Assembly: GCA_963666055.2 (NCBI GenBank)
Contig: CAXWPH010000007.1
Coordinates: forward strand, 256,001 to 320,000
Direction: 5' to 3'
DNA length: 64,000 nucleotides
Source of the DNA: Acidobacteriota bacterium
GTDB lineage: Bacteria > Acidobacteriota > UBA890 > WLXD01
Shown: positions 9,532-54,529 of the stretch, piece by piece
How the letters are laid out: each line of letters opens with the position of its first letter
Numbering within the stretch: the stretch's first letter is position 1
Notes under the pieces: generated by a model
Database searches by the model: none
What the model saw: the letters and a program-made list of their open reading frames with translations, nothing else
Told to the model about the DNA's origin: nothing
Translations under genes and position numbers: made by a program

Positions 9532-10572
9532 CTACGCGCCGACCACCGTCTTCATCCAGTCTGCGGTGTTGTGGAAGTCGGAGACAACGCTGCCGGGCGG
9601 CACCAGATCGTCGCAAGCCTGGCGCGCCGCGTCGCTGAGGTCCATCTCCAGCACGGGCAGCAGCGGCTCGAGATGCTCCATCGTTCGCGGCCCGATCAGT
9701 GGCGCGGTGATCCCCGGCTGGTCCTTGCACCAGAGAATCGCCAGCTGGGCAGCGCTGAGCCCCTCTGATTCGGCGATCTTGGTGAACTCGATGCCGACCT
9801 CCACACCACGACGCGTTACGCGATCGGCGTAGAAGCCGCCGCGCAGGGCAGCACGAGACTCGGCCGGGTACTCGTCGTGACTCTTGTATCGACCGGCCAA
9901 TACACCCATCGCCATGGGCGCCCAGGTGATCAGGCCGACACCATGGCGTTGGCACATCGGAATGAGCTCGTTCTCGATGCGCCGATCGAGGAGGTTGTAT
10001 GGCGGCTGCTCGGACACGTATCGGGCCCAGCCGCGAGCCTTGCTGACGCCAATCGACTCCATGACCATCCAGGCGGGGTGGGTGGAGCAGCCGATGTAGC
10101 GGATCTTGCCCTGCGTCACCAGGTCGTGAAGGGCTCCCAACGTCTCATCGAAGGGAATGTCGGGAGACGGGCGGTGCATCTGGTACAGGTCGATATAGTC
10201 GGTGTCGAGCCGCTTCAGCGACGCCTCACAGGCGCGAATAATATTAAGCCGCGAGTGACCGTACTCGTTGGGTCCGATCTGATCCGTGTAGTCCTCGAGC
10301 GTTGCGCCCACCTGACGCCTGCCGTGATCGCACTTCGTGCCGATCAAGACCTCGTGCCGACGACCGCTGCGCTTGAGAATGCGGCCCAGAACCCGCTCGC
10401 CCTCACCGTCGGCGTAGACGTCGCCGGTGTCGACCAGATTGATACCCGCGTCCATGGCGGTGAGGAGAATGCGCTCGCATTCCTCCTCCGGGGTCGGGTC
10501 CATGAAGTTGTCGGTGCCAAGCGCCAGAGGCGCGACCTTGGCGCCGGTTCGTCCGAGGCTTCGGTAGTGCAT
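9532..10572 (-). CDS. Aldo/keto reductase
   Basis: MHYRSLGRTG start at 10572, DTGDVY, SLKRLDTDYIDLYQMH, GKIRYIGCS, EQPPYNLL. Confidence 0.93.
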   Translation of the reverse strand: MHYRSLGRTGAKVAPLALGTDNFMDPTPEEECERILLTAMDAGINLVDTGDVYADGEGERVLGRILKRSGRRHEVLIGTKCDHGRRQVGATLEDYTDQIGPNEYGHSRLNIIRACEASLKRLDTDYIDLYQMHRPSPDIPFDETLGALHDLVTQGKIRYIGCSTHPAWMVMESIGVSKARGWARYVSEQPPYNLLDRRIENELIPMCQRHGVGLITWAPMAMGVLAGRYKSHDEYPAESRAALRGGFYADRVTRRGVEVGIEFTKIAESEGLSAAQLAILWCKDQPGITAPLIGPRTMEHLEPLLPVLEMDLSDAARQACDDLVPPGSVVSDFHNTADWMKTVVGA

Positions 10573-12080
10573 CACTTGTGCCACCGCCGTTTGTTCTGCA
10601 GGCCGTCTGCGTGGGGAAAGGAGCCCTCGCGCGTCGCGGCGTGATAGGCGAAGCTCGCCAGGATTACCGATGCTTGCTCGAGATCTTCCGCAACCAGCCG
10701 GTCGTATACGTCCATGTTGGTGTGGAACGACACGTTGAAAAACTCGAGATCGTCTTGAATGAACTGGAAGCCGGGCAGCCCGACCTCTTGAAACGCCATG
10801 TGGTCGGTGCCGCCGGTGTTGCCGGGAACGATCCACTCCATGCCGACATCGTGGAAGGGCCGCATCCAGGCCTCGAAGATCGGCCGCGCCTCGTCGTTGC
10901 CTTGCAGGAAGATACCGCGAAAGCGACCGTACCAGTCGACGTTGAAGTACACGTAGTGGCTGGCGTGCTCCGGTCGCCGCTCCCCGGTGTCGCGGTTGCC
11001 GAGATGCTTGGCGACGTAGCCTCGCGAACCGAGCATCCCCGACTCCTCGGCGCCCCAGAGCGCTGCGCGGATGGTCCGCCGCGGCTTCGCCTCGACCGCC
11101 GCCAGAATGCGCATTGCCTCCATGACGATGGCGCTGCCCGAGGCGTTGTCGGTAGCACCGGTTCCAGCCGGCTGCGAGTCAAAATGCGCCCCGATCATCA
11201 CTACCTCCGACGCCAGGTCGCCGCCCGGTAGCTCCGCGAGCACGTTGTAGTCGAGCGGGTCGTCGTCGTGGAACGCGTTGCGCACCTCGATCTGCATCTC
11301 GGGCTCGATGCCGCGGCCAATCAGCCGCACGACGCGGTTGTAGTGCTCTGCCGCCAATACCAGCGCCGGGAGCCCCGGCTCCTCCCCCAAGGGGAGGGGG
11401 CCGTCACCGGTGACGGCGACCAACCCCTTGTCCATCGGTCCGACGTTGGCCTGGCCGGGAGCCATCAAGGCCACCACACCCTGGTCGCGGAAGAACTGCT
11501 GCATCCACTGCGGTGGCAACGGCTGACGCTCGCTAGCACTGTCTCCGCGCGGCGGCTCGTCCGCGGGGCGCTCGGTGTCGAGGCGCGCCATCTCGCGCAG
11601 CTCCTCGTCCGACAGGCGAACCGCCTGCGGCTGAAAGCTCATCTCCAGCCGGCGCTCCGGCTGCGTGAAGACACTCTGACCGGCAAGCTTGCCGCGATAG
11701 GCTTCCAGGTCCGACGCGTCGAAGATCTGTGTGGTGTCCAGCAGCACCACCCCGGTGGTCACGGTGCCGCTGGTGCTCGCCGTGCCGGGCACCGGATAGG
11801 CGATCACCGGCTGATAGCGCGGCTTGGTCAGATGAACGGAGGTGTATTCGTTCTCCCATCCGTAGCCGTATTCGCCCCACGCTTCGAGGGTGGCCGTCAG
11901 ACCGAAGCTCTCGAAAGTCTGACGCGCCCACTCGGCCGCCGCGTCATACGAGGGAGAGTTCGCGTACCTGGGACCGTAAACATCAGTCATCGCCCCGGCC
12001 CACTCCATCACTTTGGAACGGGTCAATCCCTCGCGGCGAAGCTCGGCAACGACCGCCTCGTGGATGGGCTCGGGGTTCAT
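10572..12080 (-). CDS. M28-family metallopeptidase (carboxypeptidase Q-like), detached from its signal peptide by a repeat insertion
   Basis: GAHFDS, GATDNASG, WGAEESG, GGTDH and HTNMD motifs. No signal peptide at 12080, but an in-frame hydrophobic leader lies at 12363-12419. Confidence 0.9.
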   Translation of the reverse strand: MNPEPIHEAVVAELRREGLTRSKVMEWAGAMTDVYGPRYANSPSYDAAAEWARQTFESFGLTATLEAWGEYGYGWENEYTSVHLTKPRYQPVIAYPVPGTASTSGTVTTGVVLLDTTQIFDASDLEAYRGKLAGQSVFTQPERRLEMSFQPQAVRLSDEELREMARLDTERPADEPPRGDSASERQPLPPQWMQQFFRDQGVVALMAPGQANVGPMDKGLVAVTGDGPLPLGEEPGLPALVLAAEHYNRVVRLIGRGIEPEMQIEVRNAFHDDDPLDYNVLAELPGGDLASEVVMIGAHFDSQPAGTGATDNASGSAIVMEAMRILAAVEAKPRRTIRAALWGAEESGMLGSRGYVAKHLGNRDTGERRPEHASHYVYFNVDWYGRFRGIFLQGNDEARPIFEAWMRPFHDVGMEWIVPGNTGGTDHMAFQEVGLPGFQFIQDDLEFFNVSFHTNMDVYDRLVAEDLEQASVILASFAYHAATREGSFPHADGLQNKRRWHK

Positions 12081-12085
12081 GGGCT

Positions 12086-12362
12086 CTAGCAGGCCGTGGT
12101 GAAAGTGTGGTGGGTCTGGTTACGGCGAGTTGGGGCCAGATGCAAGGCAGCCTGACACAGGCGATGCCCTAGCCATCGTCGAGGAAGGCCAACGCTGCAG
12201 ATGGCCCCAAATCGCCGTAACCCTTCGGGCGACAGGGGGTTGCGCGCGTAGGCTGCGTCGTTCCTCGTCAACGATGGCGTAACCATCGCCTCCTCGTCTC
12301 TCCTTGCCTCCACTTTCGCAAGACCCTGTCGCCAGACCCGCCACACTTTCACCACGGCCTGC
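12086..12362. mobile_element. Complete MITE/REP-like palindromic element with 31-bp terminal inverted repeats
   Basis: 12089-12119 GCAGGCCGTGGTGAAAGTGTGGTGGGTCTGG is the inverse of 12332-12362 (1 mismatch). Internal hairpins at 12120-12220 and 12230-12331 flank CCCTTCGGG. CTAG at the left end. Confidence 0.85.
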
Positions 12363-12453
12363 GACGGGCGATGCGGCGACCAGCGGCACCGTAGCGGCAA
12401 GAGCTGCCAAACGGCACATCTGCGTGGTCCCGGTACGTGCTGGAAAATCGTCG

Positions 12454-12471
12454 ACACAATATCGTATACAC
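12454..12471 (-). promoter_or_regulatory. Candidate GntR operator / -10 region of the peptidase-proline racemase operon
   Basis: Reverse complement GTGTATACGATATTGTGT matches GTGTATGGAATATTGTAT (30013-30030, upstream of gntR) at 14/18 positions. Confidence 0.55.
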
Positions 12472-12526
12472 AAAGCAATAGCATCCGCGGCGCTGCGGCG
12501 GCGGCGGCATCGATGTGCCTGGCAGG

Positions 12527-12556
12527 GCAGGCCGTGGTGAAAGTGTCGCCTGCTAG
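12527..12556. repeat. Short collapsed copy of the CTAG repeat
   Basis: GCAGGCCGTGGTGAAAGTGTCGCCTGCTAG. The terminal CTAG contains the stop codon of the GWxTD gene. Confidence 0.8.
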
Positions 12557-14802
12557 CTTGCTCGCTGCGCCGCCTGCGCCCGTTCGAGCGTCGCTCTGAC
12601 GCCGACTTGGCTGTCGTCCAGCGCCAGCGAGCGCGTCAGGATCTCGATGGCGCGCTGCAGATTCGCCGGCTCGCCCGCCTCGTCTTGTGCGAGGTACTCG
12701 GCGGCCAGCGAGTTGAGCACGTCGACGCTGTCGCTACGTTCCAGTACGGCGCGCTCGTAGAAGCGAATGGCGTCGTAGTGCTTCCCTTGTCGCGCCGTGG
12801 CCTCGGCCAGCAGCAGCAGCAGCTCCAAATCGTGCGGAGCATCCACGAGGCGCTCGATGAGGAGCTCCTCGAGAGCCTCGTGATGGCCACCGTCACGGAG
12901 TAGCTCGATTTGCAGCTGCAACGCATCGTAAAGGTCCGGCTCCCGCAACAGGGCGTCGTCGACCAGAGCGATCGCCTCCCCGGTACTGCCGGCGACCCGC
13001 AGGATTGCGGCACGTCGTACCAGCGACCTCGGGTCGGTAGGCGGAGGCGTCGCTGCAGCGTGCACGATGGGGCGCCGAACCTCGTGGCGCACGAAGAACG
13101 GCAAGCTATCCCAGGCGGCCTGGCCAACGATCGACACCGTCAAGGAGTAGGCGCCCGGATCGACGTCCATCGTGATGCCGGTGAGCTGGTTGACGACCCC
13201 GAAACGGTCCACCCCATCGGGCCGGATCGAGATCTGTTTCACGCTGACCATGCGCCCAGCGTCGTCGTGGACCGTGTAGGACACGTTGACAATCTCGGTG
13301 TGCTCCTCCGGTAGCAGCACCTGATGGAACACGTACAGCTGCCCCCCGACGGGGAACGGACCGTCGATCGTGGGGGTCATCGCCAGCTGACCGACCTGGA
13401 ATGGCAGCTGAGCTCCGAACGGATCGTAGGCGGCACCGAGCGGCCGCACATCGGCACACAAGATCGGCTGCCCGAGGGTAACCGACGCAGGATGGGGGAT
13501 GGGGACCAGGGCTGCCGTGCCGATCTCGCCGTACTCGTGGCTGACGTTGTTTTCGAGCACCAGCTCCAGCTGTAAGGATCCATGGATGGCGGGAATCCGG
13601 TCGACGTACATCAGCGACCCGGCGCGGGCGCGCTCGAGCGCACCCTCGGGCAGGCTGCTCTGGATGAGGCGAGGCGGCGGTCCCTCGAGCACGCGTCGGG
13701 CTTCGTCGAGCAAGTACGTCCCCACCGAGAAGGTCATGTAGTGATTGCCCTCGTGCTCACCGAGGTTGAGCCCTGGTCCGGGCGCCCGCGCCACGTAGCT
13801 GACGAACGGCCGACCGTCGGGATCGAGCCAACCGATGGCTCGCGCGTCGATATCGAGAGTTTCGAACCGCACCTCGGTTTCGGTGGCGCCGGTCAGGATC
13901 GGGTACGTCCACTCGATCGTCGGCACCATGAGATCGGGAATCTCGAGAATGTCCCCGATCAGGCTCTCCGACCGGAGGGGCGACCCCAGCCGCGCCTCGC
14001 CCGGAATCAGGCTGAACGCCGCCTCGGCAAGGTCGGGGTTGACCAGCCGCAACAAGTTGTAGGTCCCCGGACCACCGCTGATAAGGCCTCCCATTCCGAA
14101 GCCCTGCTGGCCGAGGCCACCTTGCTGCCGTACCGAGTTGCGACCGGTCGGGTTGAGAAGTCGCTCGGGACCATCGCCGGCGGGACTGTAGAGCTCGAAC
14201 TCGCCCATGCCCTGCTCGCGAAAGAAGACGACGTAGAAAAATGTCGGGACTCCGAGGCGCGGATCCATCTGGTAGAACCAGACCTCCACCGGGTACAGGT
14301 TGGCGTCGTTGTGGTGCCGTGAGCGGGTTTGAGGCTCGCCGAGCAACACGTAGATGCGGCCCATGTCGGTGCGCCAGCCAGGCCCCGGAGAGACGCGGCC
14401 GAACTGACGAGTGGCGTACGCCAGCCGCTCGTAGTGAATCGGAACATACTCGTTGCGCGGCGTCCCCGGGGTCGGGTCGCGACGCTCCCAAAACGCATCG
14501 ATGAACCGATCACGCTTGTCGTCGGAGTCGAGACGCAGGAAAACGTCGCGCTCGGGCTCGGTGATGATCCAGACGACCTCCTCTTCGAGCCAGACACGGA
14601 AACGCTCTGGCAGGTCGCGCGATCGGAGCTTTGGATAGGCACTCAGATCGACCTGATGTGCAGGCAACGCACCGGCGGCCCGGACCGTTGCGCCGACCAT
14701 CGTGCCGAAGCTGCTCAGCCCGATGACGACAGCGACTACCAGGCCGATCCGACCGGCGCGCCGCCCGGCTCCGGCTACCGGGCGCGGAGGACTCGGATGC
14801 AT
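12553..14802 (-). CDS. GWxTD domain protein with C-terminal TPR repeats
   Basis: WLEEEVVWIITEPERDVFL, FWERRDPTPGTPRNE, GWRTDMGRIYVLLGEP, N-terminal signal and TPR tail. Confidence 0.9.
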   Translation of the reverse strand: MHPSPPRPVAGAGRRAGRIGLVVAVVIGLSSFGTMVGATVRAAGALPAHQVDLSAYPKLRSRDLPERFRVWLEEEVVWIITEPERDVFLRLDSDDKRDRFIDAFWERRDPTPGTPRNEYVPIHYERLAYATRQFGRVSPGPGWRTDMGRIYVLLGEPQTRSRHHNDANLYPVEVWFYQMDPRLGVPTFFYVVFFREQGMGEFELYSPAGDGPERLLNPTGRNSVRQQGGLGQQGFGMGGLISGGPGTYNLLRLVNPDLAEAAFSLIPGEARLGSPLRSESLIGDILEIPDLMVPTIEWTYPILTGATETEVRFETLDIDARAIGWLDPDGRPFVSYVARAPGPGLNLGEHEGNHYMTFSVGTYLLDEARRVLEGPPPRLIQSSLPEGALERARAGSLMYVDRIPAIHGSLQLELVLENNVSHEYGEIGTAALVPIPHPASVTLGQPILCADVRPLGAAYDPFGAQLPFQVGQLAMTPTIDGPFPVGGQLYVFHQVLLPEEHTEIVNVSYTVHDDAGRMVSVKQISIRPDGVDRFGVVNQLTGITMDVDPGAYSLTVSIVGQAAWDSLPFFVRHEVRRPIVHAAATPPPTDPRSLVRRAAILRVAGSTGEAIALVDDALLREPDLYDALQLQIELLRDGGHHEALEELLIERLVDAPHDLELLLLLAEATARQGKHYDAIRFYERAVLERSDSVDVLNSLAAEYLAQDEAGEPANLQRAIEILTRSLALDDSQVGVRATLERAQAAQRAS

Positions 14803-54442: not shown

Positions 54443-54529
54443 TGTGCTGTCTCCGATGAGGCTTCTCCTTGCCTCCACTTCGCAAGTCCCTGTCGCCAGA
54501 CCCACCACACTTTCACCACAGCCTGCTAG
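54439..54529. repeat. CTAG-bounded composite repeat filling a convergent intergenic space
   Basis: The right part is near-identical to ~12299-12362. Both terminal CTAGs carry the stop codons of the flanking genes, and the left end CTAGTGTGCTGT resembles 41679. Confidence 0.9.

What the first reader, a model, noticed from the sequence alone, without database searches (positions are those of the whole stretch)
10572..12419. Element inserted exactly in frame between signal peptide and mature M28 peptidase, with a single TAA blocking read-through
Seen: ATG 12419 encodes MCRLAALAATVPLVAASPV, in the same frame as the peptidase ATG 12080. The 273 nt between them (12090-12362, 91 codons) are the element, and the only stop is TAA 12120-12122. 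After the stop the frame continues PDPPHFHHGLLEPMNPEP. Removing the element gives a normal secreted M28 protein. Inference: the first gene of a 7-gene operon was either knocked out or converted to a cytoplasmic form by re-initiation. In-frame palindromic inserts recall Rickettsia RPEs. Excision or splicing would act as an export switch, which is speculative.
Basis: partly seen in the sequence, partly recalled or inferred. Interest (0 to 1): 0.7.

Follow-up and report, generated by a model that had tools for sequence, protein, structure and literature searches.

The report
Mini-transposon cuts off peptidase export signal
A common non-coding mini-transposon sits between the predicted export signal and the body of a peptidase gene, and the gene likely lives on as a cytoplasmic enzyme started at an older internal methionine, as in relatives that lost the same signal without any transposon, so this is ordinary signal-peptide loss rather than an export switch.

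Summary
In detail: leader ATG 12419, one TAA (12120-12122) and the M28 ATG 12080 share a frame. A congener (G001) has the empty allele with the leader fused to the peptidase; the net insert is 276 nt, not 273.

The insert is one of 84 full-length copies of a CTAG-flanked, likely IS5-type MITE that the scan had already noted on other DNA. It is in frame only because of an extra A private to this copy (1 of 84), and the TAA is standard element sequence (68 of 84).

Relatives lose the same leader in other ways: G002 keeps only the element's right end and has deleted the leader; two MITE-free marine contigs carry it out of frame; others have no leader start codon or no room for a leader. The downstream Met is conserved, the metal-ligand motifs are intact, and dN/dS (0.12) matches the neighbouring genes.

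Best reading (0.6): tolerated signal-peptide loss leaving a likely cytoplasmic M28. Main rival (0.27): recent silencing of a dispensable gene. An excision, splicing or read-through switch has no support (about 0.04): no cognate transposase was found in the genome and no empty junction in four runs. Expression is untested.

The parts
12366..12419 (-). Orphaned signal-peptide-like leader, 18 codons (MCRLAALAATVPLVAASP), with a weak Shine-Dalgarno
   Evidence: In frame with the M28 in G001; 3 synonymous and 1 non-synonymous difference from G001. Maximum 10-residue hydropathy 2.09. SD duplex -4.0 kcal/mol against -10.0 in G007. SignalP was not available.
12362..12365 (-). Left flank 4-mer GTCG, a decayed or non-canonical target site; CTAG is usual
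   Evidence: 68 of 84 full copies have CTAG on both sides; GTCG occurs once. The empty allele has GCAG in G001 and L088.
12090..12361 (-). MITE core, 272 nt, with terminal inverted repeats and nested internal hairpins; non-autonomous
   Evidence: 84 full-length copies and 455 TIR-like ends in G000; fold z=-8.5; terminus found in 20 of 41 genomes searched, all in the same order.
12314..12316 (-). AAA run holding the private extra A that makes the whole insert a multiple of three
   Evidence: 1 of 84 copies; matched with 0 differences by contigs of X3 and X6.
12120..12122 (-). TAA ending the leader-initiated 99-codon frame; consensus element sequence
   Evidence: TAA in 68 of 84 copies, CAA in 11 of 84; same TAA in G002.
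12086..12286 (-). MITE-internal 66-codon ORF (ATG 12286, after a GAGGAGG run) that stops at the TAG of the right CTAG, 5 nt before the M28 ATG; could couple translation in this strain only
   Evidence: Sequence; it is the 3' part of ORF 12086..12484. The start is deleted in G002, so it is not conserved. Function is inferred only.
12086..12089 (.). Right flank CTAG
   Evidence: identical junction in G002.
10572..12080 (-). M28 (carboxypeptidase-Q-like) metallopeptidase ORF, 502 aa, starting MNPEP, no leader, no cysteines
   Evidence: Pfam PF04389; closest solved structure 3iib, aligned from residue 5; H299, D301, E345/E346, D382 and H453 present; dN/dS 0.123 against G002.
12448..12478 (-). Conserved upstream motif (TTGCTT-17 nt-TATTGT layout with a TGTATAC core), likely the promoter or operator of the M28-AKR-racemase cluster
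   Evidence: Found in G000, G001, G002, L088 and G007; single copy in G000. The sigma-70 scan scored nothing, so promoter status is inferred.
12527..12553 (.). Collapsed mini-copy of the same MITE end at the GWxTD gene's TAG stop
   Evidence: absent from G001 and G002; apparently present in the X9 and X13 contigs.

Best explanation
A CTAG-flanked MITE sits at the junction between the leader and the mature part of an M28 peptidase gene and stops the leader frame at its own TAA, and the gene likely survives because translation would start at the conserved Met 12080, giving a predicted cytoplasmic, full-domain enzyme. SHOWN: the insert is a standard copy of a high-copy family; the leader is ancestral; the Met is conserved in the closest relatives, including leader-bearing ones; the ORF is intact and conserved like its neighbours; other lineages lost the same leader without a MITE. 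INFERRED: an IS5-type transposase acting in trans made the insertion, probably once, before G000 and G002 split. INFERRED: ribosomes start at Met 12080 de novo, or re-initiate after the leader frame (stop 39 nt upstream) or after the MITE-internal ORF (stop 5 nt upstream). INFERRED: the protein stays in the cytoplasm, while four leader-bearing paralogues cover the secreted role. The frame match is an accident of one extra base and has no function.
For: Element: 84 full-length copies from 126 end pairs and 455 ends; 68 of 84 CTAG/CTAG. Empty allele with leader in G001. G002 has the same right junction and TAA but a 240-nt deletion removing most of the leader, at a GGCA microhomology. Met-start N-termini in the closest homologues: P0002 MNTEP, P0003 MTPEP, P0004 MNPEL, P0007 MSSEP, P0008 MSPES (gene-caller starts); leader-bearing G007 and P0005 also have Met at this position. 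DNA-checked leader loss without a MITE: L088 (84% identity; degenerate leader, no ATG, no TIR), L106 and L099 (start overlaps the GWxTD stop), and L091-type loci (polar N-terminus, in-frame stop just upstream). X9 and X13 contigs: net -275 nt against the window and no indel in the leader, so the leader is out of frame. Selection: M28 dN/dS 0.123 at dS 0.21 against G002, while the other 10 genes tested give 0.07-0.23; G000 branch 21 synonymous to 4 non-synonymous unambiguous changes; against leaderless L088, 0.14 at dS 0.59. Metal-ligand motifs intact; the 3iib alignment starts at residue 5, so the fold is not truncated. The element avoids coding DNA: 34 of 84 copies sit on stop codons, 1 of 84 scored intragenic. 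Shared old insertions are common: of 14 assessable G002 sites, 6 carry element DNA in G000. Four M28 paralogues in G000 have leaders. Signal-peptide loss among orthologues is common, mostly by N-terminal deletion (PMC5952966, passages).
Against: No expression data of any kind. The Met has no real Shine-Dalgarno (-1.7 kcal/mol; L088 and G001 -2.8) and lies 9 nt past the TIR stem, so translation may be low. The age of the insertion is unresolved: MITE-free X9 and X13 are closer to the window (19 of 588 and 10 of 325 differences) than G002 is (45 of 581 and 18 of 318), so G000 and G002 could have been hit independently and recently, in which case the dN/dS mostly predates the insertion. The element-clock test rejects neutrality only under some assumptions (P from 0.96 to below 1e-4). 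Among the 9 X9 differences shown, two G000-private changes are non-synonymous (F19L and residue 16). The cluster decays in kin: broken in G007, IS-interrupted in G005, not found with this query in G003 or G004. Several leaderless calls rest on gene-caller starts only.
Confidence: 0.6

Rival explanations
1. Recent knockout. The MITE inserted recently, and separately in G000 and G002, into a dispensable gene; the ORF is silent or nearly so and has not yet decayed.
For: MITE-free X9 and X13 are closer to G000 than G002 is. No Shine-Dalgarno at the Met. The cluster is broken or missing in G003, G004, G005 and G007. Orthologous MITE copies are no more alike than random pairs (12 differences, median 12), as expected from independent insertions. 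Orientation is biased at stop-anchored sites (25 against 10), so a matching orientation says little.
Against: The ancestral target GCAG is non-canonical, which makes two independent hits unlikely. The left flank has decayed, and the nearest sibling copy differs at 8 positions. Four G002-type proteins (three full-length calls starting at the Met, one called from a later start) are about 99% identical and unbroken. L088, L099, L106 and L091-type genes are long diverged, leaderless and intact.
Confidence: 0.27
2. The Met-started protein is made but still leaves the cytoplasm, by piggy-backing on a partner or by non-classical export, so its location has not changed.
For: The family is mostly leader-bearing (51 of 75 tree rows labelled signal-bearing by my heuristic). 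Two M24 genes in the cluster have leader-like N-termini.
Against: The Met-started N-terminus has no hydrophobic stretch (hydropathy 0.31) and no Tat-like motif by inspection; no partner is indicated. The adjacent AKR, racemase and SDR genes have no leader-like N-termini.
Confidence: 0.06
3. Export switch. Precise excision, RNA splicing or TAA read-through rejoins the leader and the peptidase under some condition.
For: The insert is in frame with a single stop; a CAA variant at that position exists in 11 of 84 copies; the paired TIRs bring the two junctions together.
Against: The frame depends on a private base. G002 keeps the TAA and the frame but has deleted the leader, so nothing would be left to export. 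No homologue of the G007 IS5-type transposase in G000 at E<1e-3. No Rfam match beyond one chance hit at E=0.63. No contig joint skips the element in X1, X2, X3 or X6 (contigs drop rare variants). The MITE-free close relatives have the leader out of frame. Read-through would place about 92 foreign residues between signal and enzyme.
Confidence: 0.04
4. RPE-like coding insert. The element is being domesticated as an in-frame peptide module and this copy is one mutation from fusion.
For: The consensus has one open frame across its length; 5 of 84 copies are both frame-preserving and open in some frame (7 frames).
Against: The open frame is not the frame used here. Only 1 of 84 copies scored intragenic, and that one is frame-shifting and sits in a gene with a further stop. 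At about 64% GC an open 91-codon frame among six is unremarkable (my rough estimate, about 40%). No Pfam hit for the 99-aa product.
Confidence: 0.03

Closest known systems
Bacterial MITEs mobilised in trans by IS transposases (Nezha, IMU, and from recall RUP and Correia; reviews PMC3184786 and PMC10969869, passages read), here linked to IS5 family NF033581 (transpos_IS5_4, DUF772)
   Same: TIRs, short conserved flank motif, non-coding hairpin core, high copy number, empty and filled alleles in congeners. A sister subfamily in G000 with the same body (about 73% identity) has ends nearly identical to IS5_4 elements of G007, which are also CTAG-flanked.
   Different: No autonomous element with exactly this TIR was found, and no cognate transposase in G000. 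The flank pattern does not fit a 4-bp duplication (none of 6 left-outer or 4 right-outer variants is mirrored); TA duplication against blunt insertion at CT^AG is unresolved.
Signal-peptide loss among orthologues (PMC5952966)
   Same: Orthologues differ in having a leader; loss comes mostly from removal of the N-terminal region and a shifted start.
   Different: That study looked for transposable elements near such N-termini with ISEScan and found none (passage). Here a non-autonomous element sits at the leader junction, and a Met at the leader boundary predates the loss.
Rickettsia palindromic elements (RPEs)
   Same: Palindromic repeat inside a coding frame, with length divisible by three in this copy.
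   Different: RPEs encode a conserved peptide and form translational fusions at many loci (PMC10969869). This copy has a stop in the host frame, its frame is accidental, and the family avoids genes.
M28 metallopeptidases (PF04389; PDB 3iib Peptidase M28; sources name close homologues carboxypeptidase Q)
   Same: Domain layout and metal-ligand motifs; four leader-bearing paralogues in the same genome.
   Different: The window's copy has no leader. Substrate and activity were not tested.

Membership tests
MITE | Terminal inverted repeats | tested here: met
   30 of the first 31 positions identical between the two ends
MITE | Short, no transposase, multi-copy | tested here: met
   272 nt; 84 full-length copies; no Pfam hit for the 99-aa product
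MITE | Empty and filled alleles at orthologous sites | tested here: met
   G001 is empty at this site; 8 of 14 assessable G002 sites are empty in G000
MITE | Target site duplication | tested here: inconclusive
   Insertion adds the core plus 4 nt, with CTAG on both sides in 68 of 84 copies; a 4-bp duplication is disfavoured; TA duplication against blunt insertion is not resolved
IS5-family-derived MITE (NF033581) | TIR shared with an autonomous IS5 element | tested here: inconclusive
   The sister subfamily's ends match G007 IS5_4 ends; this subfamily shares only the terminal CAGG(C) and a shifted TGAAA; no exact parent found
IS5-family-derived MITE (NF033581) | Mobilisation by that transposase | not testable with these tools
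   Needs a transposition assay; no cognate transposase found in G000
Rickettsia palindromic element | Open frame through the insert in the host frame (translational fusion) | tested here: not met
   TAA at 12120-12122
Rickettsia palindromic element | Frequent in-frame insertion into intact genes | tested here: not met
   1 of 84 copies scored intragenic by a crude codon model, frame-shifting, in a broken gene; the classifier missed the window's own copy, so short coding flanks are under-counted
Self-splicing intron | Match to a known catalytic RNA model | tested here: not met
   Rfam scan of 11900-12700 gave one chance match, E=0.63
Self-splicing intron | Spliced junction in RNA | not testable with these tools
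   No RNA holder listed
Programmed DNA excision switch | Cognate recombinase or transposase in the genome | tested here: not met
   tblastn with the G007 transposase found nothing in G000 (95.7% complete); the resident IS5 and IS630 elements have other ends
Programmed DNA excision switch | Precise frame-restoring empty junction within the same population | tested here: inconclusive
   None in contigs of 4 runs, but contigs drop rare variants; MITE-free relatives are out of frame
M28 peptidase | Pfam Peptidase_M28 above the gathering cut-off | tested here: met
   115.8 bits against a cut-off of 21.3
M28 peptidase | Two-metal ligand motifs (HxD, TDN, EE, D, H) | tested here: met
   H299, D301, DN311-312, E345/E346, D382, H453, aligned to 3iib; the ligand roles are from recalled family knowledge
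M28 peptidase | Peptidase activity | not testable with these tools
   Needs an assay
Sec signal peptide (the leader) | Basic n-region, hydrophobic h-region, small-residue cleavage site, homology to leaders of orthologues | tested here: inconclusive
   Hydropathy 1.85-2.09 and a homologous leader in G001 and G007; no SignalP available; a proline lies in the h-region

The most novel reading that the evidence does not exclude
This M28 clade had two starts: a leader ATG for a secreted form and a Met at the cleavage site for a cytoplasmic form. The secreted form has been dropped at least four times by different routes (MITE insertion, leader decay, loss of the whole intergenic region, replacement by a polar N-terminus). 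The window would then be a case caught in the act of a non-autonomous transposon re-localising an enzyme, a route a published survey looked for and did not find, and the X9/X13 allele may be the imprecise excision footprint of the same insertion. The stronger claim, a reversible export switch, I put at about 0.04.
Probability: 0.3. Interest if true: 0.5.

Novelty: new member of a known kind. Interest (0 to 1): 0.27.

Why it matters
If the leaderless protein is made, this is a clean natural series (leader intact, MITE-split, leader deleted, leader frameshifted, leader decayed) for how a secreted enzyme becomes cytoplasmic, with a MITE as one trigger; PMC5952966 found no transposable elements at such sites in Enterobacterales. 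It is also a caution for scans: an 'exactly in-frame insert with one stop' can arise by chance in a high-copy MITE family, since 16 of 84 copies here preserve frame. It does not reveal a new regulatory mechanism.

Tried and rejected
Looking for the parent transposase: I read the ORFs between 8 of the 10 widely spaced TIR pairs in the printed output; their translations read as host genes, not transposases. Family searches in G000 (PF13358, PF01609, PF05598) found an IS630 element and IS5 copies with unrelated ends. tblastn with the G007 transposase found nothing. A masked self-BLAST returned too many repeats to help.

Expression: no RNA holder listed; this is not evidence either way. Rfam gave one chance hit. 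The promoter and terminator scan found nothing.

Dating: comparing orthologous MITE copies was uninformative; the L032 comparison was spoiled by an orientation error in my script and dropped, and L044 was no closer than random. The element-clock test of neutrality depends on its assumptions. The tree is the quick version with heuristic labels on gene-caller starts, so I counted only DNA-checked losses. Runs X8 and X10 did not cover the junction. The order-wide search added only G007.

Assembly error as the source of the frame was rejected. A 4-bp CTAG duplication is disfavoured.

Literature: six searches were answered. 'MITE + CTAG + Acidobacteria' gave 0 papers, and none of the listings described this element or locus. 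The library lacks most subscription journals, and no supplements were read. No structure prediction was run, as it would not decide the question.
Full report
1. Observation. The frame from ATG 12419 reads MCRLAALAATVPLVAASPV, runs through the insert, meets one stop (TAA 12122-12120) and continues PDPPHFHHGLLEP into the 502-aa ORF at ATG 12080. That ORF is a Pfam M28 peptidase (E=2.7e-33); the 99-aa upstream product has no Pfam hit. The insert folds far better than shuffles (z=-8.5) and its ends are identical at 30 of the first 31 positions. The boundaries need a small correction: the core is 12090-12361 and the net insert against the empty allele is 276 nt (113 codons before the Met against 21).

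2. What the insert is. G000 (5.7 Mb, 15 contigs) holds 455 TIR-like ends, 126 facing pairs and 84 full-length copies, of which 58 are 271 nt and 68 are flanked by CTAG on both sides. The terminus occurs in 20 of 41 genomes searched, all in the same order, with almost no matches for the reversed control. A sister subfamily with the same body (about 73% identity) has ends nearly identical to 1.3-kb CTAG-flanked elements in G007 whose transposases pass the NF033581 IS5 cut-off. No homologue of that transposase was found in G000, and the resident IS5 and IS630 elements have other ends. It is therefore a MITE, likely IS5-mobilised and possibly immobile now. Outer flank variants are never mirrored (0 of 6 and 0 of 4), which argues against a 4-bp duplication; TA duplication and blunt insertion both remain possible. 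A crude codon model puts 34 of 84 copies on stop codons and 1 of 84 inside a gene; that gene is permease-like and carries a further stop. The scan had already described this family on other DNA; I had reached the same reading before looking.

3. The reading frame is an accident. The modal insertion adds 275 nt. Sixteen of 84 copies preserve frame by length. This copy does so through one extra A found in no other copy. The base is real, since X3 and X6 contigs match it exactly. The TAA is consensus sequence (68 of 84; CAA in 11 of 84). Without the extra A the leader frame would run to the TAG of the right flank, so export would be blocked either way.

4. The leader is real but dispensable. G001 (92% identity) has the empty allele, with the leader in frame. 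G007 has an MCR-type leader with a strong Shine-Dalgarno (-10.0 kcal/mol against -4.0 here), also followed by Met. Most homologues at 55-68% identity have leaders. The closest ones mostly do not. G002 (95%) shares the right junction and the TAA but has lost 240 nt, including most of the leader, at a GGCA microhomology. L088 (84%) has a codon-homologous but degenerate leader with no ATG and no TIR. In L106 and L099 the M28 start overlaps the upstream GWxTD stop. L091-type loci have a polar N-terminus with a stop just upstream. Contigs from two further studies (X9, X13) lack the MITE: they skip 278 nt with 3 letters between, and show no indel in the leader, which leaves the leader one base out of frame. 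The quick tree puts these leaderless forms in separate supported groups, with leader-bearing rows between them (labels are heuristic and rest on gene-caller starts, so I count only the DNA-checked cases, at least four losses).

5. Is the gene alive? The ORF is intact, has its metal-ligand motifs and aligns to PDB 3iib from residue 5. My NG86 estimate against G002 is dN/dS 0.123 at dS 0.21, inside the 0.07-0.23 range of the other 10 genes tested. The G000 branch shows 21 synonymous and 4 non-synonymous unambiguous changes, with 24 ambiguous codons set aside. Against leaderless L088 the value is 0.14. This shows function after the insertion only if the insertion predates the G000/G002 split. In favour: an identical junction, a non-canonical ancestral target (GCAG), a decayed left flank, 8 differences to the nearest sibling copy, and element DNA at 6 of 14 assessable shared sites (30 G002 loci examined; 11 had no usable orthologous flank, 4 were unclear, 1 was a duplicate; sorted by eye). 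Against: X9 and X13 are closer to the window (about 3%) than G002 is (5.7-7.7% over the same spans), so either they lost the element imprecisely or it inserted twice. Also against: the Met has no real Shine-Dalgarno, the cluster is broken or missing in four relatives, and the element-clock test is assumption-dependent. There are no expression data; no RNA holder was listed.

6. Mechanism. Transcription likely starts at the conserved motif at 12448-12478 (promoter status inferred). Leader-initiated ribosomes stop at the TAA. The peptidase would be made from Met 12080, by de novo initiation or by re-initiation; in this strain a MITE-internal ORF ends 5 nt before the ATG and could couple translation, but G002 lacks its start. 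The product has no export signal and is predicted to stay in the cytoplasm, next to the AKR, proline racemase and SDR products. Four paralogues in G000 keep leaders. I give this reading 0.6, recent silencing 0.27, export by another route 0.06, a switch 0.04 and RPE-like domestication 0.03.

7. Why not a switch. No cognate transposase was found and there is no Rfam model. No joint skips the element in four runs of two studies (contigs hide rare variants, and these runs may include the source). The frame rests on a private base, G002 has discarded the leader, and the only MITE-free close alleles are out of frame.

8. Comparison with what is known. It works like, and meets the tested criteria of, a MITE (PMC3184786, 12 passages seen; PMC10969869, 5 passages seen). 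It is not an RPE: those encode a conserved peptide and form fusions at many loci. Signal-peptide loss among orthologues is common and mostly deletional, and PMC5952966 (12 passages seen) reports finding no transposable elements at such N-termini, which gives this case modest value. Six literature searches listed nothing on this element or locus; the library is incomplete and no supplements were read. The phylum Acidobacteriota comes from a source name.

9. Verdict. This is a new member of known kinds (MITE insertion and signal-peptide loss). Interest 0.27. The most novel reading still open, an ancestral two-start gene that has shed its secreted form repeatedly and once through a MITE, has probability about 0.3 and interest about 0.5.

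Noticed in passing
G000:C10:107822-108092: A full MITE copy inside a permease-like gene (family judged by eye), frame-shifting, with flanks CTAG/CTGG; the gene has a further in-frame TAA downstream. The apparent CTGG target fits blunt insertion at CT^NN as well as TA duplication.
   Followed up: partly
G000:C11:160030-160379, C1:107444-107797, C7:59594-59979: 83-bp tandem units of the MITE's right end, likely from insertion into the element's own internal CTAG followed by recombination.
   Followed up: no
G000, e.g. C5:147123-147401 and C12:215491-215768: Sister MITE subfamily with IS5_4-like ends and a related body; it links the family to IS5.
   Followed up: partly
L044 against G000:C15:896583: MITE copies at orthologous sites differ by 12 of 271 nt while synonymous divergence is about 0.2. 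The element is more conserved than neutral DNA (constraint, gene conversion or re-insertion); unexplained.
   Followed up: partly
G000, e.g. C2:306030, C3:136965, C6:153541, C10:148838: Several MITE copies sit in the CTAG next to a recurring TGTTACAGGCCA flank that resembles an IS630 end (resemblance recalled).
   Followed up: no
window 12448-12478: Single-copy motif conserved in five genomes or contigs, with a TGTATAC core resembling a GntR-type operator (recalled), upstream of the M28-AKR-proline racemase-SDR cluster.
   Followed up: partly
L116 (G007:C2:2841402-2844851) and L007 (G005): The orthologous cluster is decaying: M28 is broken by deletions in G007 and interrupted by an IS in G005. 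G007 carries at least 150 DUF772 matches.
   Followed up: partly
window 33427, 35135, 54508-54525, 59996: Four more truncated or diverged MITE ends in the window, each preceded by CTAG.
   Followed up: partly
M28 C-terminus, window 10575-10592: A basic C-terminal (R/K)RWHK tail ends 106 of the top 120 homologues, with or without a leader; role unknown.
   Followed up: no
G000:C8:29538-42541 against C8:53958-66961; C6:1-8030 against C13:58156-66188: Near-identical duplications of 8-13 kb (99.9%); the genome is very repeat-rich and some may be assembly artefacts.
   Followed up: no
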